The notes beneath the pieces were generated by a model, which worked only from the letters and a program-made list of their open reading frames with translations, did no database searches and had not been told where the DNA came from. This document shows, in pieces, positions 4,423-45,300 of a stretch of 64,000 nucleotides of DNA; positions within the stretch are counted from its first letter, which is position 1; every line of letters starts with the position of its first letter. A program made the position numbers and the translations under genes. This DNA comes from Gnetum montanum (Eukaryota > Plantae > Gnetophyta): the NCBI GenBank assembly GCA_015680685.1, contig MNCI01003248.1:1-64000 (forward strand), in the 5' to 3' direction.

Positions 4423-6731
4423 ATGGAGGAGCATTGCTGCAAGGGACCGCAGGAAATGGAACGCAAATGCGACAGCATAGTAATCAATGTCGACGGTCAG
4501 GATGGGATAAAAGATGGAAAGAAAGATTCGAATAGCTTGCACGATTCTGCAGCGGAAGTTGTTGCAGAAGGGTTTCCAGCAGTGCTTGATTTTGATCTTC
4601 TCTGTGCAACCGTAGCTATGCAAAATAATCACATGTCTTTTGAGGTCCGGAGCTTGTTGGATAGAGAAAGCGCAGGCGGAGGAGTGCAGAGAATGTGGGA
4701 AGGAGGGCTAATGGAATGCCACGACGAGCGCGATGTCTGTCTCAGAACAGCATTGTAAGTATTTTCTCTCTATGTGCGCAACTTCTTTACAAAAACTTTG
4801 TTTATGATGTCTGTTGATTGTTCTTAATTTTGCAAAGTTCATTACGCACATATTCATTAAAATCATTGCGCTCTCTGTTGCGACTTGTAGATGTTACTGA
4901 TATTTATTGTTAAGAGCGCAAGCTGGTTATAGGACACTAAGTTCAGAAGTTCGTACCAGTAGAAGTAGAATAATCTGACAAATCAAACGGACGAAATAAA
5001 ATCTCAGTTTCGGTTTCATAATCATGAACTCTGGATACTTTTCACTGTTGCGTTAAGTCACTAATTTTTGCTTGCACAGAATTAATAGTGACCTTGACCT
5101 TGAAGTGGTATTTTATGTGATTGAAGGACTTTGTTTTTTTTTTTTTGGATTATTCGAAGAACATAAAGCAGGGCTATGGTGCTCGTTTCTGAGGTCCAAG
5201 GACTGGATTTGAGTTGAACAAAGCTACTTAAAAAATAAAAAATAAAAACTTTCTTTCATTTAACGGCCCTTCTGAAACCCTGCGCCTTCGGTTGACCCTT
5301 ATCTAAACATGAACTGCAATGTAATTTGTTTTATGAATATGATTGAACTACAAGCACTGAAGTTCTTTCCAGTTGTTTTGCCATTTGTATTGACAGAGAA
5401 TGCTTTATTTTTCTCCCTCTCAGTTTGTTGATTTTGATATCTTTTCGTACGTTAGGTAATTCTTGCATTTGGATGCTAATATATAATAGTCAATGGCAAT
5501 GTTTTCTTTGCAATTAATAACAATCTGTCACCTTTTTCTTTCTTTGTTGCTGTAGTCTTCCTTTCATCACATTTGGCAAAAATATGGGAATGGCTGGTTT
5601 TGGGTCTTCAATTTGTCAGGTACTTCCTGCCTGTCGGGTAATTCTGGATTTAAGCTTTCCAGTATGAAAAATTTGTAGGGTATTAAGGATTTGTGTTTGA
5701 TGTTGCTTTTGTGCTGGTTAAACTCTCTGATTTTAGATTGAAGGGTCTCTCATATTCCCTCTGCCAATTATGGTGCAAATAAAGTTTTGGTGAAAAGTGG
5801 TATTGGTTAGGGTCAAGTGGTTTTGAAAACCGCCAGACCTTTAAAATACAATTATCCTGTTTTTGGCTGCAGAGAACTATTTTCACTTAAAAACAATTGC
5901 ATGAGCTGCATATTAATGTGATGTCATGAAATGTTGCTGTTATCCAGGGTATTGTTCACTTCGTGTTGTGTGTGTGCGCACTTATCTTTTTCATCATTTT
6001 CGGAGTTACTAGAACTTATAGCCTTTTGTATGTTGCCATTGCATTGATGCTTTTGATGGCTGCATATGCTGGGTATTTCAGATCACAGATGCGAGCCAGA
6101 TTTAATATCAAGGTATTTTTCTCGTTTAATAAAACGTTGAGCTTTTTAGTCATACTCTAAATTTCTTTGTTTCTTATGACATCAAATCGAAGTTGAAGTT
6201 TTTCTTTTTCTGATTTTTCCCCTTTTCTTTTTTCTTCTTTTTTTGCAAGGAAGAATACTGCATGCAATTTTCTGCTTTTTTTCTTTTTTTTTTTGTTCAC
6301 TTAGTTTTACTGATGCTTTTTGAAATGCCGTGTTTCCCATGCAGGGTAGTGACGGCCCCATTGATGATTGTTTGCATCACTTGTTCTGCTCTATGTGTGC
6401 CTTGTGTCAGGTACGTGATATTCCCCATAAGCTTTTAATGTATTGGATCGATTGTTTATTTGGTATGTCTTGATTTAATTTCTGTTCTTACTCTCTGCAG
6501 GAAGCAAGGACTTTGGAAATAAATAATGTTCAAGACGGTGTATGGCATGGCAGGGGTGACATATTGGTAAGGGGCTTCAGAGACCTTCAGAAGGGAACTG
6601 TGGAACTACAGGAGCCTTCTGTGTTGACGGTATCACCAGAGCCCTGTCAAATGGAGGGAAGAGAGCATTCATGGATCAAAGTTTCCGACCAAGCTGAACC
6701 TTTAGTTGGGTTCAAACATGGTGATATATGA
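4423..6731 (+). CDS. PLAC8 / cell-number-regulator (CNR/PCR/FWL) family protein, ~285 aa; join(4423-4754,5556-5619,5948-6112,6345-6410,6501-6731)
   Basis: All introns are GT-AG and phases are consistent (858 nt). Motifs: QRMWEGGLMEC, FGKNMGMAGFG, two hydrophobic segments, YFRSQMRARFNIKGSD, DDCLHHLFCSMCALCQEARTLEINNVQDGVWHGRGD (PLAC8 QE-x-R motif). Confidence 0.9.
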
Positions 6732-8705: not shown

Positions 8706-9511
8706 TGGTTGAAAGTACCGTTAAAATAACTAATTATAAATTAAGCTTAAAAATGGTTTGGTACCATAAAAGGAATTATTGCAATTTTTTAATGTTTTAC
8801 ATTGGATGCTTATGATCCCTAAATCATTGAAGGTATCCTAAACATTGAAATGATCCCTGAAAGTTCAACTTCTGTTTATTTAGGAAGGCAACTATTGCAT
8901 TTTGTTCCAGGTTTTTGTTGTGGATAAGCGTAATTGAGAAGGTAACATAACCATGTTGAGTACCTCATTTTCCCGTACCCTGCGCTTGTTTTCAATGCCG
9001 TTGAAACTAGTGACGTACCTTTATCGTTTTAACCAACCTTCAGATGTTTGTGTTGCAGTTGACTGCAAGGAGAATCTGTTTCTTATTTGAAAAGGTCATG
9101 CAGAGATTGTTCATGGCATTTTTGCTGTGAGGGGCCCAACGCAAGAGAAAGAAACCAGAGGAGTAAAACTCAAGGTACAGAGGTTCCAAACACGAATATA
9201 TTTAATAGTATACCATTCTTTTCTTGGGCAGCTGCTGCAAAGAATGATGGATACTTGTATCAGAGGACAGAAAATGAAGCCATTCCCCAGTTCCATTGCC
9301 AAGTAACAGAAAAGTTGCCCGAGGTTGGTTATTATCACTTATCATCCAAGAATCCTTCTCAAATATTCTGCCTCCGGCAATTTCCCAAACCCCAACGAAA
9401 CATGCCAGAATGTCTCAGGCAACTCTGAAGCAGGTTGTGAACGTTGCTTGCATGCTTTGCAGAACCGGCTCCTTAAATTAACAGTTTGAACAGGAGACGC
9501 AGACAACATGG

Positions 9512-12206
9512 ATGTTCATAGCATTCATAGAGGCCGTTCGGTTCAGCCTATCTTCCATGGCAAAATCAAAATATTTGTATTGGGTGATTGTGCTTGCTCA
9601 TATTGTGTGTATCATTTTCTTCCTCTCTGAATTTTCTCCTGTCAAATGGCCCAACAGTGGAATGATGATTAAAAGGCAGACCTTTGAAAGTTCTGCTTCA
9701 CATCCTTTGGATGCTCACCATCAGAAGGAGAATGAAATGCTGGTAGACAGAAAGATCAGAATCAAAGGATTGAATCCTTCTAATGAGGATCATGCTGGGT
9801 CTGGTTCAGCTTGTACGGATGAATCATCAGTGGCAGCTTCTTCAGACGAGCAGAATCAAGAGGTGCAAGGAATCCAATGTGACGTTTTTGCTGGGAAATG
9901 GGTCAGAGATGATTCATACTCATACTATTCTGCTGGTTCATGTCCATTCATTGATGAATCCTTTGATTGCTTCAACAACAAAAGGCCTGACCACGGCTAT
10001 CAGAAATGGAGATGGCAACCTCATGGCTGCAACATTCCTAGGTGAAAAACCCAAATTCATTTCAACTATTTTTTTAGTCCTTTTGACATCATCATCATCG
10101 TGTATGGGTCTGATGTTATTTGATCAAGGCCAAATTTAGGCTCGTGGTTCAATCATTTATTTTACAACTCTGTCCCTTCGTACCCATTTCAATTCTGGGA
10201 AGTCCTAACTTGCAACACTATTTGATTTTTATCATTTAATATTTTTCATCATCTTCATGAGTTTGAAGGATTTAACTAGAACCTGAAAATTTTTATTACG
10301 TACAGGAAATCATAGATGATTTAACAAGGTAAAAAATATGCTTTTTTGTTAAGATAAATTTCCATGGACTTTTCTAGCAGGTTGAATTCCAGCCATATGT
10401 TGGAGGGACTGAAAAACAAAAGATTATCTTTTGTGGGGGATTCTTTAAACAGAAACATGTGGGAATCACTGGTCTGCATCCTTCGACAGGGCCTGAAGGA
10501 TAAGATGCGTGTTTGGGAGATTTCTGGCAAGCGTAACTATAAAACAGAGGGATTCTATGCTTTCAAATTCGAGGTAACTTTTCTGATGCTCATCAGTTAT
10601 CGTTAGTATAGCTTTAACCAATTGAGTTCATGACTTTTGCTACTAATTTCAACACAATGGCTACCGATTCCGTGCAAAACTCAATTTAAAAAAAAAAAAA
10701 AACTGTTACTAGCAATTTTATGAAAAACTCAAATCAATTTCATTTATACGTCGAATCAAATTTGATAGCTAACTAAAAATCAAATTCAGACTTATGCAAA
10801 TCAATTTTGCTATGTTTCAACCAACTTCTTCAAATTGAATAATCATTTTTATTTCAATTTTAAAAACAAGAAAGCGAACATGAAAGAAAATGAAACATGG
10901 AATATTACAAGAAGAAAGAAAACACATAAAAAAAAGAAATAAAGAGAGTAGCACAAAATTGATTAATCATTTTGACAAAATTATTTGCAACAAATGGTAA
11001 AATTGATTTACCATGTTGTGTGAACATTCTATGAATGTTTTACTAAAATGAATTTCAGTACAGTGAAATGGTTACATATTTTGTTGAAATTGGTTGCAAA
11101 AACTGTGAATTTAATTGGTTAAATGGCTACTATGGATGTGATCATCAACCTGGTTTCTAAGGAATAATGTTTTCTAGGGGAAAACAAATGAAAAGTACTG
11201 TAGAACTTTTTGTTTACTTTGAATTCACAATGTTTGGACAGGAATTTTCTAATTTATTTATTTCTATGTAGATGTTAACAAGGTTTCGTCTAAATTCAGG
11301 ATTATAATTGTACGATAGAATTTTTCCGGGCACCTTTCTTGGTTCAAGAGTGGAAAATGCCTTCTGAAAATGTATCATCGATGACAGAGACTCTGAGATT
11401 AGATTCAATGGATAGTTACGCTGCAAAGTACAGAGATTCTGATGTTCTTGTATTTAATACAGGCCATTGGTGGACTCATGAAAAAGCCGCCAAAGGGTAT
11501 TTATGATTTTCATTTATCTCGTTGAATAGAACATTATATTATTCATATTTGTGCACACAGTCAACTGGTAATCCTGTAATAAGTTTCACATTTGTATACC
11601 TTGTTTTGGGCATTGACAGGCTGAAGTTTTACCAAGAAGTTGATTATCTGTATCCTCACATGGATGTTTTGGAGGCATTCCAAAGGGCACTGAAGACATG
11701 GGCTGACTGGATTGATTTAAACATCGATTCACAGAAAACCCAAGTTTATTTTAAGGGTTACTCTGCTTCCCACTTCAGGTATAGCTTCAAACAAATTTCA
11801 ATAATGATGTAATATCATCTTTCTGGGTCCTTGGGATAGGTTTTTTGTAGAGTCACTATTAAATATAGCATGTCCTATGCCGTTGTGAAAACACAGAGGG
11901 GGCCCATGGAACTCAGGAGGGCAATGCCACAATGAATCTGAGCCAATACTGGATGACGAGCATGTTTCAAGTTACCCAAAACTGTTGAAAATATTAGAAG
12001 AGGTGATGAAGCAAATGAAGACTCCAGTGACGTACCTCAACATTACCAGAATGTCTGCTTATCGAAAGGATGCCCATCCATCCATCTACCGAAAGAACAA
12101 GTCCAAACCTCAATTACAGAGCAATCAAGATTGTAGCCATTGGTGTCTCCCTGGAGTACCTGATACATGGAATGAACTTCTCTATGCTTCCATGTTGAAA
12201 AAATAG
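9512..12206 (+). CDS. TBL: TRICHOME BIREFRINGENCE-LIKE polysaccharide O-acetyltransferase (PMR5N + PC-esterase), ~462 aa; join(9512-10041,10381-10573,11300-11496,11620-11778,11897-12206)
   Basis: N-terminal TM segment; [27 protein letters not shown]; [16 protein letters not shown] (GDS motif); FNTGHWW; [19 protein letters not shown] (DxxH motif). GT-AG introns in phase (1389 nt). The start could be the later Met (MAKSK). Confidence 0.93.
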
Positions 12207-13984
12207 ACTCGTCAATTTCTTTCTCTAATTAAGGATGGGGTTTTACCCCTCCTATATCATCATCATCATCTTAGCCTTGTTCTAACAACATGGAGCCTTG
12301 TTCTAACAACATGGATTGAGCTACATGAGTTCTCTTTTGCCATTTGCCTCTATGAAGAGCTAAACCGTTATTTATTTTTTTACCCCTCCTATATTAATCC
12401 CAGAATTATGAAGGAAATGAGTGAGATTTTCATATTTTTTTATTTGTAAATCTGTTTTGTACCCCCATGCTACTGGTCTGGTGAGTCCAAGGCTAATCCT
12501 TTCACTTGAACATTCATGTTATTCGAATAGCCGTTAAATTCAATATTACTCTAGATATATGATGTCTTGCAGCACTGTCTAGCAATCTTTTCGTTTTTTT
12601 GGAACAAAGAACTTGAAATATCCAAGCATTTCTAAGGCTTAACTGCTATGAATTTTAAGATGTTTCTCAACTAAAGTTGGGAAACATTTTGGATATCGTT
12701 GGAGGAATGTAGAGACATTGGATTTTAGAAAACATGGGTTGGAGCTTGGAAGCTGCTTTTGCATTAAACAAAATGTTATTAATCTGTTCACAAGCGTAAA
12801 ATGAACCTCTTTTTGTTATGTGCATTTAAAAAAAATAGTATTCCACATTTTGAGTTTAAAGTAATGATCTTCAAATTGATAAATTAAATCTAGGTCATAC
12901 CAAACTACTCATCTTCAAGGCAACAACTTGGCATTTGCTCCCTTTGCAAATATTGAAAAGGTCATGGTTGATAAGGGCAAGCAGCTATTATAATCAAAGC
13001 AGAGGACAATGTATGCAAACTGCTTTTAGGAGAAGACAAAATTGCAATTGCTAGGGTTCAGCATCAATTGGCTGTTCAAGCATGTGATTGTTCAGTTTTT
13101 CTGTTCACATCCCCAATAAAGAAAGGAATTAAAGCCCAACAAAGATATCTTTTGGAGACCATATATCAAATTCTTAACAAATTGGGCCATGTTGTTGGAG
13201 ACCATATGTTTTTTGTTTGAGTAAGATGCAAGATGACGCCACGTTCTCATTTATAAAGCACAATGTGCTCAGATATTTTCTTTTCTTAAATATCAGGTTA
13301 ATCTTCATAACCTTTTCAGTGCTTTTTTAATGTAATGATCTGAGGAATGTCTTGTTGGATGCTTATTCATCCTGTAAGCTAACCTTCTTTCCTTTTCCAG
13401 AATTTGCCAGTTGAAATTCCCTGTATGAAGTATAATTTGTCATTGAATTAGTATTAGCATTTCATTTTAGTAACCTTAAAAAGCATAGAGCCGTTTCTGG
13501 TTATCTATACTGTCTAGATGAGTAGCAAGCCAGAGTTTCGCAGAATCATAAATCAAAATAACAAATATAAACCAATTATCGATAAATTTAACATTTTAAA
13601 TTAATATACTGTCTACGATGTTATCAAGCTCTTACAAATAATTCTGTATGTGTTACAGGCCAGAAGACATCACACCGGAGGAACAACCAGAAGACATCAT
13701 CCCAGCGTTGGGGTTGTCGTGGTCGTCGATGACATGGTCCAGCAGCAGCAGGTTACGGACACGACGGAGGCATGCAGCAGCAGCTGCTTATCGTAGAGGC
13801 CGATGAAGCCAACGACACAGCTGAGTCGGCAGCGACGGATGTAAGTGGCCACTCATGATATTTGCTTACCTGTGTATAGAAACCTAATGTGCACGTGCAT
13901 TACAAATTGTCATGTATAAACTAAATTAAACTAAATTTTCTGTACATCTGGAATGTAATTTCCGAACATTGCAGTTTCCGAACA

Positions 13985-14091
13985 TTTCATTCAGTGTTTT
14001 CGTATTTTACCGACATGCTTAACTTTCTAGAAGAGGCGATAGCGTTGCAGCGGCCACAGCATGTCGGAAAACACGAAAACACTGAATGAAA
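13985..14091 (-). ncRNA. Candidate pre-miRNA hairpin (family not recognised)
   Basis: Arms 14058-14091 and 13985-14019 pair over 34 bp with one G:U and one 1-nt bulge; 38-nt loop region. It lies ~150 nt downstream of a minus-strand TATA box. Confidence 0.7.
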
Positions 14092-14110
14092 CTCTCGAGT
14101 CATTGTCGCC

Positions 14111-14191
14111 TTAACTCGCCTTATGTTGGTGGCCGCGAAAATCGCCTGAACAACCACCAAGATTAACGTAGCAGCTCGTCTCTCTGGCCAT
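14111..14191 (-). CDS. 26-aa small ORF upstream of the hairpin (candidate miPEP): MARETSCYVNLGGCSGDFRGHQHKAS
   Basis: First ATG after the TATA box, in strong context gagATGGC. Its TAA is ~20 nt before the hairpin. Translation is unproven. Confidence 0.35.
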   Translation of the reverse strand: MARETSCYVNLGGCSGDFRGHQHKAS

Positions 14192-14240
14192 CTCTGTCTT
14201 TTGAGGGAAGACTGCGGTGTCTTCTTCTTTGTAGCCACGG

Positions 14241-14250
14241 CTTTTTATAG
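14241..14250 (-). promoter_or_regulatory. TATA box (CTATAAAAAG) of the putative MIR transcription unit; ACGT-core elements further upstream (ACGTGTC 14361-14367, TGACGTC ~14598)
   Basis: The plus strand reads ctttttatag at 14241-14250; GC-richer promoter-like sequence extends to ~14700. Confidence 0.55.
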
Positions 14251-17030
14251 AGAGGCGAGGTGCAATTGCGCCCAGCCCACCCTGCTGCTACTGAAGTAAA
14301 TAATAAGCTGATCTTATGGAAAACGGTATACACCGTAAGACACCTGTTGCTCGGAAATAAACGTGTCATTGTCAATCACGTAAAGAGAGTAAATTTCACA
14401 TCTCGCCACCATATTGCAGCGGGTCGCGGGTCTTTTGGGCAGCACGGCGGAATTAGAGGGAATTATTGGCAGACGACAGACGAAAGCATCATGATTGTAA
14501 CCATATACAGTTTCTCTCAATAAAAGTAGCATTATTATCACAGATACATTGTCCCTGCTCCTGCCACACCTGCTCGCTGTCTGTGTTCTGCATTCCATGA
14601 CGTCTGTTACCTGCGACGCGCCGCCTTCTACACGCTTTGCCTCAAGTGTCCCGTGGCCATGAAAAAAGAAGAAGATCAAATTCAATGTCTCTCGGCTCTT
14701 TTCTCCTTTCAAAATTGCTGTGTCAGGAAAAGGCTGATTATACTGGTCCAGTATACTTCAAAGACACGTTCTATCTATATATAACATACACACTCAAAAA
14801 GAAATTAGGTTTTCGTTTTGATATTTCCCCTTTTTGATTTTATATCTTGTACGGGATTAATTCCTTTGAATTTTGAATAAATCAAATTTTGGAGTTGTAT
14901 ATGTCTGGAAATACAGGAGAACGCTTCTTCGCTTCTTCGCGGACATTCTTACCCCAGGAGAACCACCACCCTGGGACTGGCGAGGGTCAGCCATTGCAAA
15001 TTTGCCGTGACTTTTTGGTTAATGGGGCCTTTTCCAATGCAAAGTGCATGCCTTTTTGTCAAATCCCTTTGTTGAAGGTATATCTGTTCTGGCAATTAAT
15101 CTACTTTGCTCTTACAATTTCCTGAGTTGGTAGATACTGGCCATCGTTGGTACTAGTGGTTTAGTTATTTATTGTTTTGTTGACTCTCCATTCCAGTCAT
15201 TACGACTTGATTTAAAAAAAAAATACCTTTGCACCTTGCGTGTTACATGGGTTAGGTGTTATGGAATCGTGGTTGGTAATTATTACTATGGGTTTGTCTT
15301 TGGATGAGTTTATATGGTTCAGTTTCTTATAGCTATAAAGAGGAGATTCATAGTCATAAGGTTGGACAAAGAATTCAATAGTTTCTTCAGAGTTATTATT
15401 TTGCCTGAGAGTTTTGGGTTTGTACCTAGGAATAAGTTTAGAGAAAAAACTGGTAAACCGATATTCCTATGGTTAACAGGGACCAGTGCCCATCAATTTC
15501 ACACCCTCCTCACAGTACTGACTTTCATAACTTTTTTATAAAAATAATTGGAATGCATTTTGATGCATGGATTTTATGATTAGATGTATAATTTTCTCTT
15601 AAAAGTTGCACTACTTTGCATTTTCACTACTTTACAATTATAATGGCCTACATACGCATTGATTGTGGCCCTGCGCTTAGCATGGGCAATGTTGGCATCA
15701 ACACAAATAAGCTACAAATCTTTTGCATTTTAAACTAAAACCAACTTATTCATAAAGTGCATTATCATTATGGAAAATCATTTTGGTTTAGTAGTTAATA
15801 AAAATTCTAAATATGTGTAGGTTTTTATATCTTATCAATGGCTAGAAAATTGTTTAAAAGCTAATTTGAATTAGTAGCAAAATGCTATGATGAGAGTGGC
15901 AAAAGCCTATCAGATGACCATTGTGCCCTAGTACATAACATTTTGATACCATTGAGAAACGAAAGCAATTACTGCCAGTTTCTACGAATGTTCACCGAAT
16001 AGAGTCATTGACAGTTTCTGACAATGCTCACAAGATCCACTACAAGATGATCTCTAAACCACTACAAGATGATCTCAGATTCAAAGCAGATTTACAATCT
16101 AGTGAAAATCAATCACAGTTTGCAAAACAGGCCAATGCAATTGCTTTTACATATTCAAAAAATTAACAATCAAGAAAGAGTACTCTGACCTTGGATGACC
16201 ACAGAAGTGCGCAGTTGGCCAAAAAGGAGGTAAAATCCTATTATTTTAATTCGTAAATGCTACAAGCTCTTCTTTTGGTGTGTCACAGGTATTTGAGATA
16301 CATATGAATCATTAATGATGTTTTAATTATCCTCTCATTGTGAAACAATATTCAAAAAATGTTGCAAGAATGGCTGAAAAGTAATTTATTGTGTTTACAA
16401 ATTTGATGTGGTTTTAGTGCTTATGTAGCCATTTCCATCGTATCTTCCTCCTAACTTGAACAAAAACATTAACGAACCATTCAAAAAATTTCAAAGTATA
16501 TACAAGAATGGAAACTACCAAAATTGTACCAAACAATGTATTTTAACTGGGCACCATCATTGATTGCTATTGTTGTTGTTAGGTCTAATGATGATTGAAG
16601 GTCTTTCAGCCACCATGAAGTCATCTCTGTCATAGAAGAGCTTCCCTTTAAAACTGAAAATTTTGACCTAGTAAAAGGTTTTCCGTGTCTAGAAAAATTA
16701 ATGCAGAAACATGTAAGTTGTTAATTCATTTGTTAGTAGTTTTGGATTTTTTTCCCTGAAATTCTGATTATTGTATGGTTTTTTTCAAGCTTTTGTATTT
16801 TGTTCTAGATGCATTCTACAAAGTATGTACTAATTTTATTTATAGTCATCAATTATGCTTGTGCTAAGAAGCAAGTTTTCATACTACACTAGTATTGCAA
16901 AGATACATGTAGAAAATACTTTGTATTTAATCTGCTTAGGGCTATCTTTTTTACTCTTATTTACTCATTGTCATCTCCCTAGCCTAAATACATTGTGATT
17001 TTAAAATCTATTATATTGTAGTTATGTTGT

Positions 17031-19838: not shown

Positions 19839-19869
19839 CTCCGCCGACATTATGACCTTTTCCTGTGTC

Positions 19870-20436
19870 ATGGAATAGGCTCAACACATGGTCACAGCAT
19901 GCTTTCCTGACCCTATTTTTGGTCACAGCATGTTCCATGTTGCTGAGCCTATTCATGTCGATCATAATGGCCAGCACGTTGCTAAGCAGTACAGGGTCAC
20001 AATGGTTTATTATTATAAATCTTCTCCGCCGCCACCACCAACATATAAGTACATCTCTCCTCCACTTCCATACTACTACAAATCACCTCCTCCTCCCAAG
20101 CAGCATCATGAGAAACCTTACTACTATAAATCCCCTCCACCACCATACTTATACAAATCACGTCCCTCTCCTAAACACAAGCATGAAAAGCTTCACCACT
20201 ACAAATCTTCTCCTCCATCTCCAACCTACAAATACACATCACCTCCTCCTCCACCTTACCACTACAAATCTCTCCCACCTCCAACTTACAAACACAAATT
20301 TCCTCATCATCCATACCAGTACAAACCATACCCTATTCATAAGCCCAAACATCCTAAACATCCTCACCCATACCCATACCCATTCCCACACAAGCCTTAC
20401 AAGTATGCTTCTCCACCACTACCAAATCACTATTAA
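19870..20436 (+). pseudogene. EXT: Extensin (Ser-Pro3-5 / YxY HRGP), copy 1; repeat domain intact but N-terminus disrupted
   Basis: ORF 19888-20436 has SPPPP/YYYK/TYKY repeats and ends KPYKYASPPLPNHY. The upstream in-frame ATG at 19870 is followed by TAG. The hydrophobic signal-like sequence is in the +1 frame. It might still be translated from 19888. Confidence 0.7.
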
Positions 20437-22744
20437 ACCCATTACTACTTTGAGACATAACTATGAGTGGTAAGTGACCTGTTTTTTTTAAATTGTTTTT
20501 TAATCAAGTCTCGGCATTTATTTTCTGTAACCAACCTTGGATGGCTTTTGATTGGCTGAGGAAGACGCTCACTCTCATCATTCAAAATGGCATGATGGAG
20601 AATGTTGCTCTGGGAGTAGTCAATTAAATAACGAATCTTCATTTTATGTGCTTGATTTTTTGTTTTTTTTTTGAATATTGCTATTCATTATTTTTATGCG
20701 TGGGGGACTTTTTTCTGTACCAGAATAAAGACCTTTGTGGAGTTATGTACTGTCAGAAATGGCATAGGCATTCATTCCTATATATAAGAATGTGGAAATA
20801 AAACGTGTATTCTTTTGAATATGAATTGTGATCAACTTTCTATTTCAGTCTATCTGATAAGCTGCTGCATCTGGACAATGGCATATTTAATATCAACCGA
20901 CATCAAAACCTTAAATTTCTGCACAGAATGCAACAAGTTAATTTTACAATCGAGTCCCTGTTTGTCATGTCTGTCAATCTTCAAATTGAGGTACCTTTCG
21001 CACTATTTCAAATTTAAAAAATGCCAGATGTGTCAAAGAAAAGTGAAGGGCACGATCAACACTGACTGATGGGAAACAACAGAAAAAAAATGCGTCTGAA
21101 ACAATCGAGAAAAATTTGATAGCAAATCAGAAATTAAGAATACCTTAAACCGTCAAAATAAAGTATATGTTTCAATATCTTGTTTTAAATTTGTTAAGAC
21201 TTTGACTAATGGGTTAGGCCGAGATATACTGGGTTCAGTTTAGAAATTTGCAAGGGAAAAATGGTTAAAGAGGCCTGGCTGGGTGCTACTATCTTTAGTA
21301 TTTCTAGCAGATCAAATTAAATTATCAAATTACCAAGAACTGTGCAAAAATTATGGTTATGATTATGCTGACCAGTTTAATTTAATATTGGCAAGCATCT
21401 AATTTCGTGTAAATCGAATCCCATTATGCACACAATAAAAAATTTAAAAAAGGTAGAAGACAACTAAGTTAAATCTGGCTGAATGAGAAACAGATGAAAA
21501 TCTGAAGATATTATCTATGTACATCAATTTTTATATTTCCACCATGATAAGTCCTTTTCAAATTTCAGAAGATGGTCCAAGAAACAACAGGAGGTCAATG
21601 TAGGAGATGGAAATGCTGCACTGAGCTTTTCTTTTACTTGAGATTTTTTTCCTTGGTGGTGTTTTACTTATAAGCCGGTTAGTCAACGGAAGAATATGCT
21701 TATCTGGAAATAGAAATCAAATTCTGGAATCTCTAAAGGCTGATCTGATTTGCAAAGGGTAAAAGTTTTGTAAACAAAAGGTTTGTACAGTTCTCAGTAC
21801 CTTTCAGTTTACCACCTGCATTTCCAAACTGTTAAATATCAAGTCCGTATCTGCCGTGGAACTGAACATAACAAAACTGCATATATTCAATAAAACGTAT
21901 AATATAATAGACTTGCATAAAAGGCTTCAGTCTTTACATTGCTTTCATGACTTGTTAGATGAGCTGGTAACAACTTAAGTACCGGTCAAAAGCTAGAAAT
22001 AGTGGCATAATCTATTACGATATCTGAATCCTGATGAGTAATGTTCAATCCTAAACCAAGTTGGGTTGGAAAGACAACATTTTATGGCGGCAGCCAAACT
22101 TTTTGTCTCCTGTTATGGAAATGACATATTCCTAAACAATAATTTGAACCTGGGTTCCTTGTTTAAACAATAAGTTTGCTCTAGGCAACTTGAGCTTCCC
22201 TAGATACACAAACAAAAATCTTAAAGGGAAAAAAGTACTTTATTTGTAGCAATTAGGATTTATTTACATCTCAGTGACTCAGACATGAACAGTTTGTGAT
22301 GGTGTAATCTGAGATTAAAAGGCCTTGAAATGCGGTTATTTGAAAACATACTACATGAATGGACACTTAGGAGATGTTGACCCTTGATAGGATAATCATT
22401 AGGTATATACCAGGATCCCAAGATATGTTAAATCTTGACTAGTAAAAGATGCTTTTATCACTTACACAACGTGCTTGCCAGCTGGAACAGGCTTTTCCTG
22501 CTCTTGCTAACAAATAGGAAACAGAAGTGACTACCATGTTTATGATGGTGCACTCTGGTGACATTATTTTAAAGTTGTTCCCGATTCAGCTTGATGCATG
22601 TTCCAACGTACTTGATGATGTGCAAAGCATGTCAAGACCAAAGCACTTGCATTTCATCTTGGATAAGTCCAACACAAAACCTATATATTCACGCTCTCAC
22701 ATCATATAACATGACAAGCAAGTACTCTCCAACATTGTTGCTGC

Positions 22745-23508
22745 ATGGTGCAGCCAGAGCAGGGCTGTGACAACGGAGTTCTTCTTAGCATTGCTATGGG
22801 TTTTGGCATTAGGGGTTGCAGTGCATTCTCACAAGCCACTTCCACCTTCTGGCAAGTCACCACCCCCACCATCCCCTGCATATCATTATTCATCGCTTCC
22901 TCCACCTCCAACTTATAAGTACACATCTCCTTCTCTGCCTCCTTACCACTACAAGTTGCCTCCACCTACATCTCCGATGTACAAGTATATATCTTCTTCT
23001 CTGGCTCCTTACCACAAGTCCCCTCCACCTCCACCTCCACCTTCAACATGCAAGTATACATCTCTTCCTCCACCTCCTTACCACTACAAATCCCCTCCAC
23101 CTCCATCTCCAACCTAAAATACATATCCCTTCCTTTGCCTCCTTATCACTATAAGTCCCCTCCACCTCAACCTCCTACATACAAGTACACATCCCTTCCT
23201 CCACCTCTAATCTACAAGCACACATCCCTTTCTCCACCTCCTTACTAATACAAGTCTCCTCCACACCACCTCCCATTTACAAGTACACATCTCCTTCTCC
23301 ACTTCCTTACCACTCCAAATCTCCTTCTCCACTTCCTTACCACTCCGAATCTCCTTCTCCACCAACTTACAAATATACATCTCCTCCTTCACCCCCATAC
23401 TACTGCAAGTCCCTTCCACCTCCTAAATGCAAAATTCCTAAACATCCCTATGAGCACCTATACAAGCCTTGCAAATATGCATCCCCACCACCACCCAACC
23501 ACTGTTAA
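22745..23508 (+). pseudogene. EXT: Extensin, copy 2 (pseudogene)
   Basis: Signal peptide FFLALLWVLALGVAVHS has no in-frame ATG (ATG 22745 is out of frame; GTG at 22767). Stop plus frameshift at 23115-23117; in-frame TAA at 23246-23248. C-terminus KPCKYASPPPPNHC* parallels copy 1. TATA-like ctatatat at 22681. Confidence 0.8.
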
Positions 23509-25139
23509 TCCCAAGGAAGACCACTATTTCAGGTTGTTTAATTATTTCTCATTGTACTGCTACACTGCAAATTTTTCTCACAACAGAGTTTAATTATTTT
23601 CATTGATTTGCAGAGGACATGCAGCGCAGATCTCTGCCTCTCTCAATTCAGATGGTCAATGCAGAAGATGTCATTTGACAGTACTTCGTCAGCCAAATAA
23701 AGTAGCTTCTTTGTATGACCTTCAAATTTTGGAAACGCTTCGTAGATTCTTTGTATGCTTAATTAATTCGTCTTACCATTTTTATTATTAAATTCAATCT
23801 GTGGGCTCATGTACTGTCAGAGGGGCTTATTCTTACCGTGTTTATGACTTTTGGAATAAGATCTTCATTTTCTTTGGTATGGAACTTATTAGTGCTTTGT
23901 CCATTGTGCAGTACTGAGCTATCAAACTGTTATATCAGGATTTGCATTAGGACTGCAAGGAAGATATAATTATTAAGTCAATGGACCCTTGAGTTTACCC
24001 GAATTTTGATGTTAACAGTTATTTCTGCCTCCTGGAACAATATTCGTTTTAATTCATGCCGTTAAACAATGATGAAATTCTTCCAATTCAGCGTTGACAG
24101 AAAGTGCATATAAAAGACAATTTCTCCATACCACTGATGTTTTCCTAGAGAAATTTGTATGTTAGTTCGTGTGTTCTAGGCTTAAATATCTGAAATTCTA
24201 CCTGGATCATTGATTTGTCCGTTTCGCTAAACTTTATTACCGTATGTTTTTAGACCGATTTTTTTAAATAAAAAACGCTGAAAACGCTTTGGATCATGGT
24301 ATCCAAATGGCAAGAGCAATTTCTCATGTAGACATTCTACAACACAATTAAAATAATGGAAGTTATTTTCAAAACGTTAATGGGTTAACCATAGGATTCA
24401 CAAGGTATACTTTCAAAAACTTAGATGCATCAACCCTTTAGAAATTTGACCGTTCAAGATGCATCACTCCGCCCACGGCTAGAAATGGACTCCCATATGT
24501 TTTTGGTTTTTTCTTGATCCATAGAATAAGTTCAAAAATTTCAAACACGTATCTACTTAGGGTTTCTTTTAAAGTTACTTTATTCACAATGTATAAACAA
24601 GTTAATTTAAGATTGTTTCAAAGTTAACTTTGTTATTGCTATAATTTATAAATACATTTTTTCTAATTTAATGCATTTACACCTTTAGTATGCTAAAGAA
24701 TTGGGAGAGTTTTTGAATTATCGTAGATCTATTACTATAACTTTGTTTTCTTCTTTTCATCTTTTACTTTAATTTTTATTTTTTTCCTAGATTTTGTTAG
24801 CATACAACTTGATAAAATTAAGTTTGAAAGTTAACCAGTTAACGATTTTCCTTTTATAGTCATCCCTAACCATCAATTTGATGTAAATGTGAATACAATT
24901 ATGTCCAATAACGCCCTATGTCTAAGGGATAAATATAAAAGTATACCTCAAGTTATGCATATAAAAGCTTTAATACACATCTAAAGAAATAACCTAAAAT
25001 TTATTACAAAAACATATTTTTCATCTATCCCTCTCCCTCGCTCTTCATTCTTTACCTTAATAAAACCAACTTTTATGTAGTAATTAATGTGATGATAAAT
25101 ATATATTAAAAATAAAAATTCAAAGTACAAAAGTAGATG

Positions 25140-32779: not shown

Positions 32780-34740
32780 AAAATTGGGGATATCCCCCAT
32801 AACTAAACGGTTGAGAATGGAAAGGATTAATAAATGGAAGATGAGGATCCTTGCATGTTGGAAGTATTAGGACTGGTCCATACTTACCCCATTGGGGTTC
32901 ACACACTTGATTATAATGAGCATAGTGGGGCACTTTATACGATGTAGTTCCCAGATAACGAGTTGACCCACTATGATGTTTGGGACCGTTAGATGGTATG
33001 CAAGGATTAGGTTGTTGCCTTCCATGACTGTGTTCATTAGGCCATATGGTTGTTGGAGCATGAGTTGGTGGCCTTGATGAATTTACAGGAGGCGTTGGGT
33101 TTGAAGATAAGGGTGCACCACAATGTGGGACTTGTGCTAGGTTGGAAGATGCAGTGGCCTCAAAATTGTGTTTTCCCTTCTTACGGCCGTGTTTAAAGAA
33201 AGCACGCTTTTGGTGTTGAGGAGGCTTTTCACTGCTATTAGAAGTAGTAGCACAAGTGTCGTTTGTGGGTTGTTGTGGTGGTGCAGACACCTTAGGAACA
33301 GTTGGTGGAAATGTAGAAGGAGGGAAAGGATGAGAATGATGAAAATGAGGAGAAGTGTAGGATACACAAGGTGGTGCTTGTGTTGGAGGCATGGGTTGAT
33401 AGTATTGAAGAGAATGGTACTGTGGTGAGATAAAGTGTGTTGGCCTAGTTGGAGAAACAGGATGTTGAACAAGATAAGCATTTGGATTCAGATTATATGA
33501 AGGGTGCCTCCAATTTGCCACTGTGATCGAACATAGTATCTCTGTACAAACTCTGGATGTAACGTGTTTCCCCAATGCTCATGTAAATGTAACAATATTG
33601 GGCATTGGCCCTTGGGGTGATCGTACAGGCATATGTTGAATTCATATGTATGATTAGCAGTTGAGCACTTATTCCCTTTATTTTTTTTTTCCGAATGTCT
33701 AATGTTTCGCCCTGCTTCTTGGGTTATCAAAACTCTATCTCCAATAATGTTGATAAATTCTCCATACTTTTGATACGTCCATTCCAACATCTTCTTGATC
33801 TTTGCCTCGGCTTCCTCTAATGATTGTTGTATCGATAAAGATGATTCTTCCACCTTGAGATTGGTTGATTTCTACTTCTTATGATCATGGACCTTTGTTA
33901 AGTTGAAATTCTGGTCCCGTTGATGTTTTTCAACACTCTCCCATCTACCTAATTCTCCTTCTTCTTTTGCTACCCACTTAATGAGCTCTTGGACTTGATG
34001 GGTTCGTAGTTTGTATAGTTGACCTTGGGCATAGATTCCTAATGTCTCTCTTGTTTCATTACATAGCCTGTTAATGATATGGTACATTAGCCTTTCCTTG
34101 GAAAACCCATGGCCTAAACAGTTGTTTAATAGTGCATAATATCTTTTTAAGGCCATGTCCAAGGGTTCATGTTGTGCTTGTTTCCATCCTTGGATTTTTT
34201 TCCTCAATTTTGACACTCTTGCATAGGTTTGATATTTTTCGTTAAAAACTTCTACCATTTTTGACCAACGTTGTACTAAATTTGGTTTTAACAATCTATA
34301 CCATACTTTGACTTGGTCATCGAGTGTCATGGGAAAGAGCTTAAGTTTTTGCCAACCATTATCAATGTTGTTCCATGTGCAAGCATCGTAGAAGGCTTGT
34401 AAATGTTGATGCAGATCTAAGTCATAGCCTTTGAAAAAAGTAGGGGAGTTGTTTAAATCGAGCCTGGGTAGATGGCTCTCTTTACGATGCCTACGTCCGA
34501 TTCGAATAACCTCTTGTATTTGCGTTAGGCTTATAGTGGCCAGTAGGGGTTCATCGTCATCAAGTAAGTTATGCTTTCATATGTTGCGATGACATTGTTT
34601 TTGTTCATGTTTATAAGAAACCCCTACTTCGGGTTGCATACTCCAATCTTCATCGTCATATAGTTCGTTGGTTTTCCAATAAACTTCCTCACTAAGTGTG
34701 GCATTATTGTAATCTTGTAGGAGAGGCATTGTTTTGCAGT
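32780..34740 (-). pseudogene. gag: gag (retrotransposon gag domain plus Pro/His-rich tail), with stops and frameshifts
   Basis: HLQAFYDAC..KLKLFPMTLDDQVKVWY..WSKMVEVFNEKY..IQGWKQAQHEPL, paralogous to 40949-41400. No protease, RT, RNase H or integrase motifs before the PPT-like TTATGGGGGA at ~32793-32802. Confidence 0.8.
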
Positions 34741-39345: not shown

Positions 39346-42300
39346 ATGTCTCCTTCTTCTTATGAGAGTTGATGAGACGCGGTCTGCGTCGGCCGCGATA
39401 TCGCATACGCGATATCACAGTCAGCCGTCATTTCTATAAATAAGAGGCGGCTCTCTCTTATTCCACATCCCAGTTTTAGTGTAGCGAAGCTCTGGCAGTT
39501 TGATCCCTCCAGAGTTAGAATTTTTCCCATGTCTGCCCGCAGTGTGGTGAATGTGATTGTACGGTGTCTTTATTCGAGTGTGTCGTACTTGGACACGCAC
39601 ATGACCGGCAATAAAGATCGAGATTGCTTCATCATTGCAGCATTCACTTAGTTTATTTATTTGTTATTTATTTAATGTTATTTATTGCTTTCATAGCGTG
39701 GTGTAAGTACGACTTGACTACGAGCATCGACGGGTGTGTACGGCTAGTTAAGGAATCGGTTGCTCATCGCACTTAGGCTAGATTAGATTTTCTTACTCTT
39801 TCCCTCATAGCTTAGCTTAGTTAGTATTATTTTCCACTGCCTTCAGGAGTAGCATTAGGTTAGGAACACATCATACACCTCATCTAGACTAAACCATACG
39901 TGACATATGCAAAACTAGTCTAGATGGGAAGATAGCGAACTGCGACCTAAGGCTAACTATCTAAATACCACAACTAGTCCATCTGCGGAGTTCGACCGGA
40001 TCGCGCGTGCGACGCTCGTTTCGTATGGTTGAGTGTAGGGGTACCTCGCCACTCATCAAGAGTGCTTCACCGCCTAGGTCTGACACCATGAACAATCGGA
40101 GGCAGAGTGCACAAGATAATCTACCAGTACCCCAATAGTTTCGCTTGGTATATGCTCATCCCAATGAGTATATACCAAACTTTACCTTTATCCTCCACTA
40201 GGATGAACAGTTGCAATGGTGTGATTTAGAAGCTAACATAGTGTTACTTCCTGATCACTCAATCCCAAGCACGCTTCTTCATGCTCTCACACGAATTGGT
40301 ATGTAGCACTTACAGTCAGAGTACATTGTGCATGAGCAAGATTCGAGAGATTATCAACCCATAGAGGCACAACACCAGAGGGATTTGCAATAGGAGAGAC
40401 ATTACAAGTCCATGAAGGGAAAGTGGTCTCAGGATGTCCTGTATGTCCTAAGTGAAAACAATTGTGGTGAACCTGCCTCGAGAGGTTTTCCACAAAACAA
40501 TGTTCCTCTCGTTGACTTCAGTCAAGGAGTTGGGTATTAGAATCTTCTTTCAACTATTCATAACCCAAGATCTGGTACCAACAGACATAAAGGGTCTAAA
40601 AAAGGAACATGAACGCATGACAATAACAGACATTTTGATCGTAACTGTGACTAAGGTCGCAACGACCAAAGAGAAGGTGACAGGCGCCATCATGGTGCCA
40701 GTCCTCCTTCCTCTTCACCTTCATCATATCTTTCCCCCTCTCTTTCGGGATCTGAACGCAGTTGCAAAGGGCAAGACCATGAGGACAAGGGTAAATGAAA
40801 TAGAGATCATAGATAAAACAATCAAGAAAAGGGACGAGAGCAATCCAGAGAGATACATCATGAAAGAAGGGAGAGTAGGGAACAACATAGACATCATAGA
40901 CGCCATAGACAATATGATCACGATGAACCCCTACTCGCCACCAGAAGTATGTTAGATATAAATAGTAGGATTAAAAGACTAGACATGAATAACATCCCAC
41001 AATTTGAAGGAAGATACAATGCCAATCCTCAAAACCATCTACAATCATTCCATGACGCATGTGCCTTGAAAAATATAGAAAACGAGTGGAAAAAGCTAAA
41101 GTTGTTTCAACAGATACTAATCAAGGAAGCGAAAAGCTGGTACTGGTCCTTAGAACCAAAATCCATTTGTCGATGGAGTACCATGTTAGAACTATTCAAC
41201 GATAAGTATCAAATGTACTCTCGGGTGTCCAACCTACATAAGCAAATCTAAGGATAAAAACAAGAAGGGCACGAATCCTTGGATGCTACCATGGGCCAGT
41301 ATTATTCATTATTACATCGTTGTCCTAGCCATGATTACTAGCAGAAGGAACAACTACGTCATCTCATAGATGGGCTTAGGTATGAAACGTGAAGAACCCT
41401 TGGGAGTTATGCCGAAGGAAGGCTATCTGAGCTAAGAGCCCATCAAATACAAAGATTATTGGGCAACTTGCCAAGGAGAAAGACAAGTTGAGAAAAAGAG
41501 AAAGTGTAGAGGAATACAACAGAGATCCTTCCCTCCAAAAGAAGGAAATTAGATTTTGTGAAGATGAGGAAGAGTCACCACTTGAAGACATGGTGAATAG
41601 AAAGACTTTACCCATCCAAAAATTTGCATCAGAAGTATTGGCAAAGGTCAATCAAATGTGGAACTCCCTAGATGATAAATTTAAGACTGTTCTAAAAATA
41701 GTAGAGGATTTTAGAAAACCAAGTAGTGACTAAGAGAGGAGGAAAAAGAAAGAAGCTGAGTATACACATAACAAAGGTAAGGGCAAGGTTGCCATCATTG
41801 AAGAGGTTGTGGATTCAGACATGAACAATGATGACAAATGTGAGATTTGCCAATATGACCATCCTAAGGGATGTTGCCTAGTGGTGTCACATCTAAAAGA
41901 GTCTGGGGGATATACACTAAGCCCACAATTAAACAAATAGCAAACACCCAAAACATTACCTTATCCCCAAGGTAACCCAAGGTAGTTCCACCAACCCTTG
42001 ACATATTATCTAAGTGGAGCTCCACCACAATCGAATGAACAATATCAACGGTGGCAACACCCACAACTATGGGGAATTTCACCATCACGTCAACAATATC
42101 CTTACCATCAACCTGACCCATACGAGTATTATGTTTAGCAACGGATCTCTCCACGTGACTCCACTAATCACGTTGCTCTTCAACCTCACTGCTAGATTCA
42201 CGAGTACTATAGAACTCCTTCTCCTAGGAATGATGTTCCACATACGTACTATCCTTCTAATCGGACTGCACCTCTTCCATCCTTAGCTCCATTACCACCT

Positions 42301-45300
42301 GCTCCAACTATGGAGGGTGAGCTTCCTACCCAGCCGTAGCAACGTAACGCTACAAGGGCTATCAATCCTCAACCTACTATTGGTTCAGACAACCAATCAA
42401 AGAAAAGACCTTTCTTTAGAATCAACAATCCAACCAAATCCTTACAACCACAAGCAGCTAATTCTCCAAATGCCTCAACATCATTCGAATCTTTAGAGCT
42501 TCCTTTGAACTAAAAATTGTGCTCCATGCACATTGTCATGTTAACTCACATCATCACTGATTGGATTAAAGCTGGTCATCTTCCTAGGAAATTCTCTGAT
42601 CTTGGAAATCTTCTTATATATTTGCAAATCGCTAGGAATGAGCCTTGCAAAGCTCTTTTGGATTTAAGTTCTGGTGTTAACTTAATCTCTCAAGAAATGT
42701 ACAAAGCCTGGAACCTACCTCCGCTAACATTCATTTAGAGTTGGCCAACCAATCCATCATTATTCCATTAGGACTAGTGGAGGACACTATCACCACTATT
42801 TGTGGGTGGTCGTATCCAGTTGATTTCCTAGTGATCCAACTTAACAAATGTAAGGGGGACTTCCCAACCATAATGGGAAGAGCATGGCTGAGTACGATTG
42901 ATGCGCACCTAGGAATATGTGATCTTTCCTTCGAAATATCAAAAGAAAATACGTTTGGAAAGATCAAGAAGAAGAAAGTTCCCTGTATTGCATACAGTGA
43001 CACAGGGTGTAAATGTGTGTAGAAGTCCAATGCTTAACATTACCTGCATGCAACCAGTGTGCACAATTAACTAATGTACAAAGATGTCTGTATGCATCAG
43101 CCACAAGATAGGAAGGCACCTAGTGGCTAATAGCTGACCGAGAGAGGAATTCAACTTTATGCATGGAACCAACTAAGAGCTTGAATTATGCCTATATCGA
43201 TAGCATAGATACATTAGAGCAAGTCCATTGCCAACTTCTGAGTCCTAACATTGAAAATATCAATTGGGGGAAGTTGAAAATCCTTAAAGAGTTTAAGCAA
43301 GAGCCCCTTGAGTTAAAACCGTTACCCACCAATATGGAGTATACATTTCTCAAGAATAGAAAATCGGTAATCATTAACGCTAAGCTTGCTCCTCAACAAA
43401 AAGAAAGACTGTTGAAGATGATAAATAAATGATTGAAAGCCTTTGCTTAGTCATATCTTGAATTAACTAGAATAGATCCTAGGATATGTCAACATAGAAT
43501 CTACACTGGCCCCTCTATGAAGCCTCGACGATAACCACAAAGATGACTAAACCCAAAGCTTAATCAAGTAGTTAAAGAAAAAATTGAACAACTTCTAAAG
43601 GCCAGGTTCATCTACCCCATTGCTGATAGTGAATGGATTAGTCCATTAGTCATTGTGCCTAAAAAGGGAGGTAAATGGAGGGTGTGTATAGAATTTAGGC
43701 TATTGAACATGGCAACATTTAAAGACCATTTCCCATTGCCATTCATTGACCAAGTCTTAGATACCATTGTAGGGCATTACTATTATAGTTTTTTGGATGG
43801 TTATAATGGGCACAACCAAATTTCAAATAGCACCAGAAGACCAAGCCAAGACTACATTCATAAGTCCTTAGGGGACATTTGCATATAGGTAGATGTCGTT
43901 TGGCTTATGTAATGCCCCAGAAACATTTCAACATCTAGTTCTTAGTATATTTCAGTAGCAAATAGGGAATGGTATGGAGGTTTTTATGGATGATTTCTCC
44001 ACCTACGGAGTGGACTTTGAATAAGCATTGGACCAACTAGAGAAAGTACTAAAATGAGGTGTTGAAACCAACCTAAGGCTCAATTGGCAAAAAAGCCACT
44101 TAATGGTCCAAGAGGGCATTGTATTAGGGCATAAAATTTCATAAATAGGGATGGAGGTAGATCCTGAAAAAATTAAAGTCATCCAAGGAATCACTCGTCA
44201 GCTTGAAAAGATAAAAGACATATGAGCATTCCTTGGACATACAGGCTATTATAGATGCTTCATTGAGAACTTTTTGAAGGTCATAAAAATATTGGTAGAA
44301 TTAATACCAAAGGATGTACCCTTTGAATGTACCAAGGAATGTGAGCTAGCTTTCCAAACCTTGAAGTAGAAGCTAGTAGAAACACCCATTCTACAAGCTC
44401 CTGACTAGTCTAGACCGTTGCATATAATTATTGACGCATCCAATTTTGCTTTAGGAGCTATGCTTACATAGTTAAATGACCAAAAATGTCCCTATTACAT
44501 TCACTGTGCAATTCAAAGGATTGCTGGTGCACAACTCAACTACACCACAACAAAAAAAGAATTAATGGCTGTGGTGTTTGCACTAGAAAAATTTAGGCAC
44601 TATGTATTATGCTATAAAATATTTGTACACATGGATCATAGTGTAATTCAGTTCCTTATGAATAAACCAATGGTGAGCCCTCACATCATACGATGGCTCG
44701 TGATCTTGCAAGAGTTTGATCTTTTGATGATCGATCGTAAAGGCATCGAGAATGTTGTTGCCGATCATTTATCTCAGTTGCGTTGGGACAACAAAGAGGA
44801 CGAATACCCAATTTTTGATCGCTTCCCTGATGAACTCTTCTTTGCAAGTGTAATAAACAATCAATCACCCATAGATACAAATTGTTATAGTAGCATTCTT
44901 ACCTATCTTCTTACATAAGAAACACCACAAGGCCTAGACATTGAAAAGAAACAATGATTTCTCCACCAAGTCAGACATTTCATGGAAATTAAGGGACACC
45001 TTGACAAGGTATGTTCTGATGGCTTGGTTTGATGGTGTGTTCCTAATGTAGATCAATTGTGAATTCTCCAAGATGCTCATGAGGGCCCTTGTGGGGGTCA
45101 TTACATTGGGAGACGAACAGCCATTAAAATCTTGCTTGCAAGATATTATTGGCCTACATTATTTTGGGACACCCATCATTTTGTCCAATCTTGTGAGCAC
45201 TGCCAACGCGATGGGGGAGTGACTACTAGAATGGAGGGTCCACAACAATGGATTCAACCCTTAGAACCCTTCGACATATGGAGTATTAATTTTATGGGGC

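What the first reader, a model, noticed from the sequence alone, without database searches (positions are those of the whole stretch)
13960..14250. Candidate novel MIRNA gene: TATA, short leader and near-perfect 34-bp hairpin
Seen (minus strand): CTATAAAAAG, then 5' arm UUUCAUUCAGUGUUUUCGUGUUUUCCGACAUGCU and 3' arm AGCAUGUCGGUAAAAUACGAAAACACUGAAUGAAA around a 38-nt loop region, with an imperfect lower stem (UCGAGAG / UGUUCGG). The single substitution is a G:U pair on the TATA strand but an A.C mismatch on the other strand, which favours the TATA orientation. There is no TSD, no second copy in the window and no N nearby. It matches none of the conserved plant miRNA families I can recall. Inference: a lineage-specific pri-miRNA transcribed toward the 3' end of TBL.
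Basis: partly seen in the sequence, partly recalled or inferred. Interest (0 to 1): 0.8.

Follow-up and report, generated by a model that had tools for sequence, protein, structure and literature searches.

The report
Lineage-specific gymnosperm microRNA gene family
A short, nearly perfect RNA hairpin in a gymnosperm-like plant sits in the first exon of a spliced transcript seen in a close relative and is likely one member of a small microRNA gene family not found in the catalogues searched, an ordinary kind of gene whose small RNA product and target are still untested.

Summary
A contig from a close relative follows the locus from the TATA region to 12873 and lacks a 215-nt intron that reads GT..AG only on the minus strand, so strand and direction are supported; the hairpin lies in exon 1, 40 nt before a GT donor. 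That run holds three different hairpin-exon contigs that overlap only over a 24-nt basal segment (14068-14091), with variable loops and flanks and one compensatory pair: a small family. No Rfam family or searched gymnosperm/fern catalogue matches. Limits: no small-RNA data, no target, conservation contrast not significant (p=0.22), the best contig's exon 1 is probably a paralog's, and it reaches into the TATA box. Host is gymnosperm-like, probably a gnetophyte (inferred). Verdict: likely lineage-specific MIRNA gene (0.62); new member of a common kind; interest 0.35.

The parts
14241..14250 (-). TATA-like box; use as the promoter is not shown
   Evidence: position; a relative's contig extends to about 14245, upstream of the start this box would predict
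13946..14245 (-). Exon 1 (hairpin exon) of the inferred primary transcript
   Evidence: contig A of run X3 aligns 14232-13946 (20 substitutions, 12 gap letters) and leaves the window exactly at the GT at 13945
14058..14091 (-). 5' arm of the hairpin; 14068-14091 is the segment common to all three related contigs and the likely source of the guide (21-mers starting with U at 14091, 14090 or 14089; inferred)
   Evidence: (0 of 24 changes in contig A)
14020..14057 (-). 38-nt terminal loop; length and sequence vary among related contigs
   Evidence: (loose ends)
13985..14019 (-). 3' arm, with bulged U at 14009 and the G:U partner at 14004; likely star strand (inferred)
13978..13984 (-). 3' side of short lower stem (pairs with 14092-14098); part of a 16-nt tandem duplication 13954-13985
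13821..13945 (-). Inferred intron 1: GT at 13945, CAG ending at 13821; contig A has 27 letters here that are absent from the window
13636..13820 (-). Exon 2; lies in a dispersed repeat shared with abundant transcripts of relatives
   Evidence: 13649-13821, 6 substitutions, 5 gap letters; the 11 'between' letters equal window 13636-13646
13421..13635 (-). Intron 2, 215 nt, GTAAGA..CAG on minus (CT..AC on plus): fixes the strand and shows the contig is RNA
   Evidence: joint; splice sites
12873..13420 (-). Exon 3 as far as the contig reaches; 3 substitutions in 548 nt; ends 667 nt from the TBL stop
13660..13948 (.). Dispersed transcribed repeat directly behind the hairpin; carries the first donor and exon 2; nature unknown
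   Evidence: other copies in X2, X3, X6, one in a 1429-nt contig whose other 1220 nt are unlike the stretch laid
9482..12206 (+). Neighbour: trichome birefringence-like (TBL) gene, convergent
   Evidence: PMR5N E 1.8e-23
14672..14800 (.). Neighbour: end of another transcript (contigs of 1015 and 2093 nt begin here and run right); probably a divergent + strand gene (inferred), unidentified

Best explanation
This is a 34-bp hairpin in the first exon of a spliced minus-strand transcript (seen in a close relative) and is likely a lineage-specific MIRNA gene, whose hairpin would be cut by DCL1 into one ~21-nt duplex from the 24-bp basal segment, the U-starting 5' strand being the predicted guide. 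Shown: the hairpin; a GT..AG-spliced minus-strand transcript over this locus in a close relative; three related hairpin-exon contigs; no ORF over 52 codons in the exon model. Inferred: Pol II transcription from the TATA region, DCL1 processing, AGO1 loading, cleavage of an unknown mRNA in trans, and help from the 5' splice site 40 nt behind the hairpin, as reported for exonic Arabidopsis miRNAs (PMC5389571, passages).
For: Structure meets the Axtell-Meyers structural criteria in all 16 21-nt registers tested (0-1 G:U, 0-1 bulged base). Spliced, multi-exon, minus-strand contig with hairpin in exon 1. Three different contigs in one run overlap only over 14068-14091; alignments of two of them stop exactly at the edges of this segment, with loops of other length and diverged but homologous 5' flanks: the pattern of a MIRNA family. 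In contig A the 5' basal arm has 0 of 24 changes, the 3' basal arm 1 of 24 (G:U to G-C), and pair 14064-14013 changes on both sides (A-U to G-C). Longest ORF in the exon model 52 codons; the 26-codon upstream ORF is frameshifted by an 11-nt deletion in contig A.
Against: No small-RNA, degradome or target data. The conservation contrast is not significant (basal duplex 1 of 48 vs rest 19 of 228, Fisher p=0.22) and one upper-stem pair (14066-14011) is broken in contig A. Differences of contigs B and C near their ends are not listed (4 and 5 substitutions unplaced), so invariance of the core is shown only for contig A; their 3' arms were not seen. Contig A's exon 1 differs by 20 of 276 but exon 3 by 3 of 548 (p=1e-7), and its 27 extra letters are not in the window, so its hairpin exon is probably a paralog's or the contig is chimeric; transcription of this very hairpin is therefore indirect. 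The contig reaches into the TATA box. The lower stem is short (about 6-7 bp) for base-to-loop processing (recalled rule of about 15 nt). All hairpin contigs come from one run.
Confidence: 0.62

Rival explanations
1. A spliced long non-coding RNA family with a short inverted repeat that is diced imprecisely or not at all (proto-MIRNA or hairpin lncRNA), possibly driven divergently from the neighbouring promoter 420 nt away.
For: No sRNA evidence; contig extends upstream of the TATA-predicted start; another transcript begins 423 nt from the TATA; conservation contrast not significant.
Against: Hairpin kept in copies whose loops and flanks have diverged, with a compensatory pair; stem is just long enough for one duplex.
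Confidence: 0.2
2. The hairpin is part of a transposon-derived unit (MITE remnant or LTR-like segment) and the related contigs are transcribed element copies.
For: A dispersed transcribed repeat abuts the hairpin (13660-13948); copies differ by about 7-15%; MITEs mimic miRNA hairpins (10.1101/213314 passage).
Against: No TSD at the arms; sequence outside the arms is homologous among copies, so the arms are not the ends of independent insertions; only 3 contigs in X3 and none in X2 or X6 cover the hairpin exon; one copy in 64 kb.
Confidence: 0.1
3. The family is a MIRNA family but the window's copy is a decaying or silent member.
For: At 14022, 14033, 14064, 14092 and 14114-14117 the window differs from states shared by two or three of the related contigs (tables 3 and 7); no contig shown to be RNA matches the window's hairpin exactly.
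Against: Its stem is more perfect than contig A's; splice signals are intact; exon 3 is 99.5% identical to a spliced contig; run X1 holds two 100% identical pieces (13595-13767, 13854-14007), though these include intron sequence and may be DNA.
Confidence: 0.06
4. A small secreted-peptide gene or pseudogene (frame 14244-13990 has a hydrophobic, signal-peptide-like stretch).
For: 85-codon stop-free frame behind a TATA box.
Against: The frame has no upstream ATG; the first ATG gives 26 codons in another frame; an 11-nt deletion in contig A breaks both; no Pfam match.
Confidence: 0.02

Closest known systems
Exonic, intron-containing plant MIRNA genes such as Arabidopsis MIR161, MIR163, MIR172a (PMC5389571, passages read)
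   Same: Hairpin in exon 1 of a spliced non-coding transcript with a 5' splice site shortly downstream.
   Different: No sequence relation; processing and splice-site effect untested here.
Lineage-specific gymnosperm miRNAs (Norway spruce, Ginkgo, Araucaria catalogues; PMC4651229, PMC6448024)
   Same: Same gene class, host group and U-starting 21-nt candidates.
   Different: None of six 11-12 nt arm motifs occurs in the supplements searched (positive controls 47, 48).
Rfam MIR2606, MIR7504, MIR7996, MIR391, MIR396
   Same: Generic long-stem fold; MIR396 shows a partial letter resemblance over the upper stem on the + strand.
   Different: Scores 30.6, 29.8, 25.1, 21.3, 16.7 bits against gathering 139.7, 83, 119, 70, 80; not members.
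MITE-derived hairpins
   Same: Near-perfect inverted repeat with a short spacer.
   Different: No TSD; flanks homologous among copies; low copy number in the transcriptome seen.

Membership tests
Plant MIRNA locus (Axtell and Meyers criteria, 10.1101/213314) | Foldback under 300 nt without secondary stems or loops over 5 nt in the duplex | tested here: met
   107-127 nt foldback, uninterrupted 34-bp stem (criteria)
Plant MIRNA locus (Axtell and Meyers criteria, 10.1101/213314) | At most 5 mismatches, at most 3 asymmetric, in the duplex | tested here: met
   0-1 G:U and 0-1 bulged base in 16 of 16 registers (criteria)
Plant MIRNA locus (Axtell and Meyers criteria, 10.1101/213314) | miRNA and miRNA* seen by sRNA-seq, 20-24 nt, at least 75% precision, in two libraries | not testable with these tools
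   no small-RNA library among the 15 runs listed
Plant MIRNA locus (supporting trait) | Single-stranded spliced primary transcript containing the hairpin | tested here: inconclusive
   met for a relative's contig, whose hairpin exon is probably a paralog's
Plant MIRNA family (supporting trait) | Duplex region more conserved than loop and flanks, with covariation | tested here: inconclusive
   1 of 48 vs 19 of 228, p=0.22; one compensatory, one consistent, one broken pair
Known MIRNA families in Rfam 15 | Score at or above the family's gathering threshold | tested here: not met
   0 hits at gathering in 64 kb; best 30.6 bits vs 139.7
miRBase / PmiREN families | Mature sequence within a few mismatches of a listed miRNA | not testable with these tools
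   databases not held; only exact short motifs were sought in paper texts and five papers' supplements
MITE | Target-site duplication flanking the inverted repeats | tested here: not met
MITE | Copies inserted in unrelated flanks, high copy number | tested here: not met
   5' flanks and loops of three related contigs are homologous; genome-wide copy number not testable
MIRNA born by inverted duplication of its target gene | Arm homology to a protein-coding gene beyond the duplex | not testable with these tools
   no genome or transcriptome file; no Pfam match for the open frame across the hairpin; no site in the window

The most novel reading that the evidence does not exclude
A gnetophyte-restricted MIRNA family whose hairpin exon is exchanged or copied between loci as a module and which borrowed its first splice donor and second exon from an adjacent dispersed repeat, giving a traceable case of a MIRNA gene acquiring the exon-intron layout that boosts its processing.
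Probability: 0.15. Interest if true: 0.55.

Novelty: new member of a known kind. Interest (0 to 1): 0.35.

Why it matters
If confirmed it is an undescribed miRNA family in a seed-plant lineage for which my searches found almost no small-RNA catalogue (one EST-homology paper on Gnetum gnemon; a Welwitschia genome paper that ran smRNA-seq). It gives a precise, cheap prediction (guide within 14068-14091). It does not change how plant miRNAs are understood; such families are common.

Tried and rejected
No whole genome is held, so copy number and targets could not be searched. Run search: no holder on record as RNA, no small-RNA library listed. Raw RNA runs X9, X12, X13 (organism B): 0 reads on 13940-14400, but no control stretch was laid for them, so no test. 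X2 and X6 list no contig on the hairpin exon; contigs show presence only. Metagenome scans: 0 hits for the 21-nt arm pattern; 3 hits for a gapped hairpin pattern, all without flank homology, chance. Literature full text: 0 papers for 12 arm motifs; supplements of PMC8275611 (5 files, one PDF unreadable; no positive control), PMC4651229 (4 files, one not searchable), PMC6448024, PMC5632664 (no positive control), PMC5569507 (one chance hit in a coding sequence): no miRNA match (controls 47-49). Cis target scan of 33 21-mers against both strands of the window: no site with penalty 5 or less, so no support for targeting TBL or its neighbours. Peptide reading rejected. MIR396 descent considered from the Rfam alignment, E 0.59, rejected. 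Solo-LTR reading of 13649-13946 (TG..CA-like ends): no TSD by eye, left open. Protein atlas gave no answer; homolog search with the TBL first exon found nothing at E 1e-22. Earlier scan notes: none.

Full report
Observation. On the minus strand a TATA-like motif (14250-14241) precedes a hairpin with 5' arm 14091-14058, 38-nt loop and 3' arm 14019-13985. The 321-nt region folds at z -4.91, 0 of 100 shuffles as stable. Of 3142 160-nt slices on both strands it has the longest stem (35 pairs; best elsewhere 25), while by energy index it ties for fourth. There is no second copy in the window, no TSD and no N nearer than 27744.

Host and neighbourhood. The TBL gene (9482-12206, +) is confirmed; its last exon is at most 68% identical to the 120 best of 1148 hits. 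The first exon of a PLAC8 gene at 4.4 kb finds 7 proteins, best Ginkgo (58%), then Araucaria and Cryptomeria. The host is thus gymnosperm-like but far from the conifers and Ginkgo in the database; a gnetophyte is my inference by exclusion. No genome is held.

Transcription. The run search listed 15 runs, 8 holding part of the stretch, from four organism labels. I laid 4 of them on 11800-14800. Run X3 (organism C; about 99% identical to the window in the TBL exon, 2 of 226, and at 14672-14800, 1 of 129) holds a 1052-nt contig A in three pieces: 14232-13946, 13821-13649 and 13420-12873. The 11 letters between the last two equal window 13636-13646, so the skipped part is 13635-13421, which reads GTAAGA..CAG on the minus strand and CT..AC on the plus. 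The first joint leaves the window at a GT (13945), 40 nt behind the 3' arm, and returns at a CAG (13821), with 27 letters between that are not in the window. The contig ends 667 nt short of the TBL stop, so the units converge but are not shown to overlap. The exon model has no ORF over 52 codons. Run X1 (organism A) has two pieces identical to the window (13595-13767, 13854-14007) that include intron sequence and may be DNA.

A family. On 13940-14400, X3 gives three different contigs: A (13946-14232; 20 substitutions, 11-nt deletion, 1 insertion), B (14034-14091; 5 substitutions, 1 insertion; longer loop, diverged 5' flank) and C (14068-14165; 12 substitutions, 4 gap letters; shorter loop). 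They overlap only over 14068-14091, the basal 24 nt of the 5' arm. In A this segment has 0 of 24 changes; the opposite basal arm 1 of 24 (G:U becomes G-C); in the upper stem one pair changes on both sides (A-U to G-C) and one breaks; loop 3 of 38; 5' flank 11 of 141 plus both indels (18 of 20 substitutions placed). The contrast is in the expected direction but not significant (p=0.22), and 7 of the flank changes cluster in 14114-14123 and may be one event. For B and C, 4 and 5 substitutions are not placed and the 3' arms were not seen. A's exon 1 is far more diverged than its exon 3 (20 of 276 vs 3 of 548, p=1e-7), so its hairpin exon is probably a paralog's, joined by assembly or by gene conversion; the window's own hairpin is therefore shown transcribed only indirectly.

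Mechanism. Most likely (0.62) a Pol II primary transcript folds in exon 1, DCL1 releases one duplex from the basal 24 bp, and the invariant, U-starting 5' strand (starts 14091, 14090 or 14089) guides cleavage of an unknown mRNA. Processing, guide choice and target are inferred. The layout matches exonic Arabidopsis MIRNA genes whose downstream 5' splice site stimulates biogenesis (PMC5389571, abstract and passages). No target site lies in the window, TBL included. Rivals: imprecisely processed hairpin lncRNA (0.2), transposon-derived unit (0.1), silent copy of a true family (0.06), peptide gene (0.02).

Comparison with known families. Structural criteria of Axtell and Meyers (10.1101/213314, passages) are met; the defining small-RNA criteria could not be tested, so this works like a MIRNA gene but cannot be filed as one. 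No Rfam family reaches its threshold. Arm motifs are absent from the full-text library, from the Gnetum gnemon EST paper (PMC9645573, passages) and from the supplements searched for spruce/Ginkgo, Araucaria, white spruce, fern/lycophyte and Welwitschia papers; positive controls worked for three of these five. These were exact-motif searches; miRBase and PmiREN were not searched, and two supplementary files could not be read, so a diverged known relative is not excluded.

Verdict. Real, probably functional, probably undescribed, but of a common kind: spruce alone has 585 MIRNA genes, many lineage-specific (PMC4651229, passages). New member of a known kind; interest 0.35.

Noticed in passing
window 13660-13948: Dispersed repeat shared with abundant transcripts of relatives (contig depths about 1005 and 97 in X3, 175 and 60 in X6, 17 in X2); TG..CA-like ends near 13649 and 13946, no TSD seen; nature unknown.
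   Followed up: partly
window 12255-12377: A short high-copy repeat in the TBL 3' region occurs in dozens of unrelated contigs of X2, X3 and X6.
   Followed up: no
window 14672-15125: Another expressed transcript starts 423 nt from the TATA box, probably divergent; 82-codon frame 14877-15125 has no Pfam match.
   Followed up: partly
window 14123-14163: Second small hairpin (10-bp arms, 21-nt spacer) in the leader; two changes in contig C read as C-to-U opposite G on the minus strand and would keep pairing.
   Followed up: partly
window 19856-20473 and 22710-23593: Extensin-like SPPPP/YY repeat genes, the second with stops and frame changes.
   Followed up: no
window 4423-6731: PLAC8-family gene; nearest relatives are gymnosperm proteins at 49-58%.
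   Followed up: partly
window 33872-34576 and 40817-45635: Decayed retrotransposon gag/pol-like frames (read by eye).
   Followed up: no
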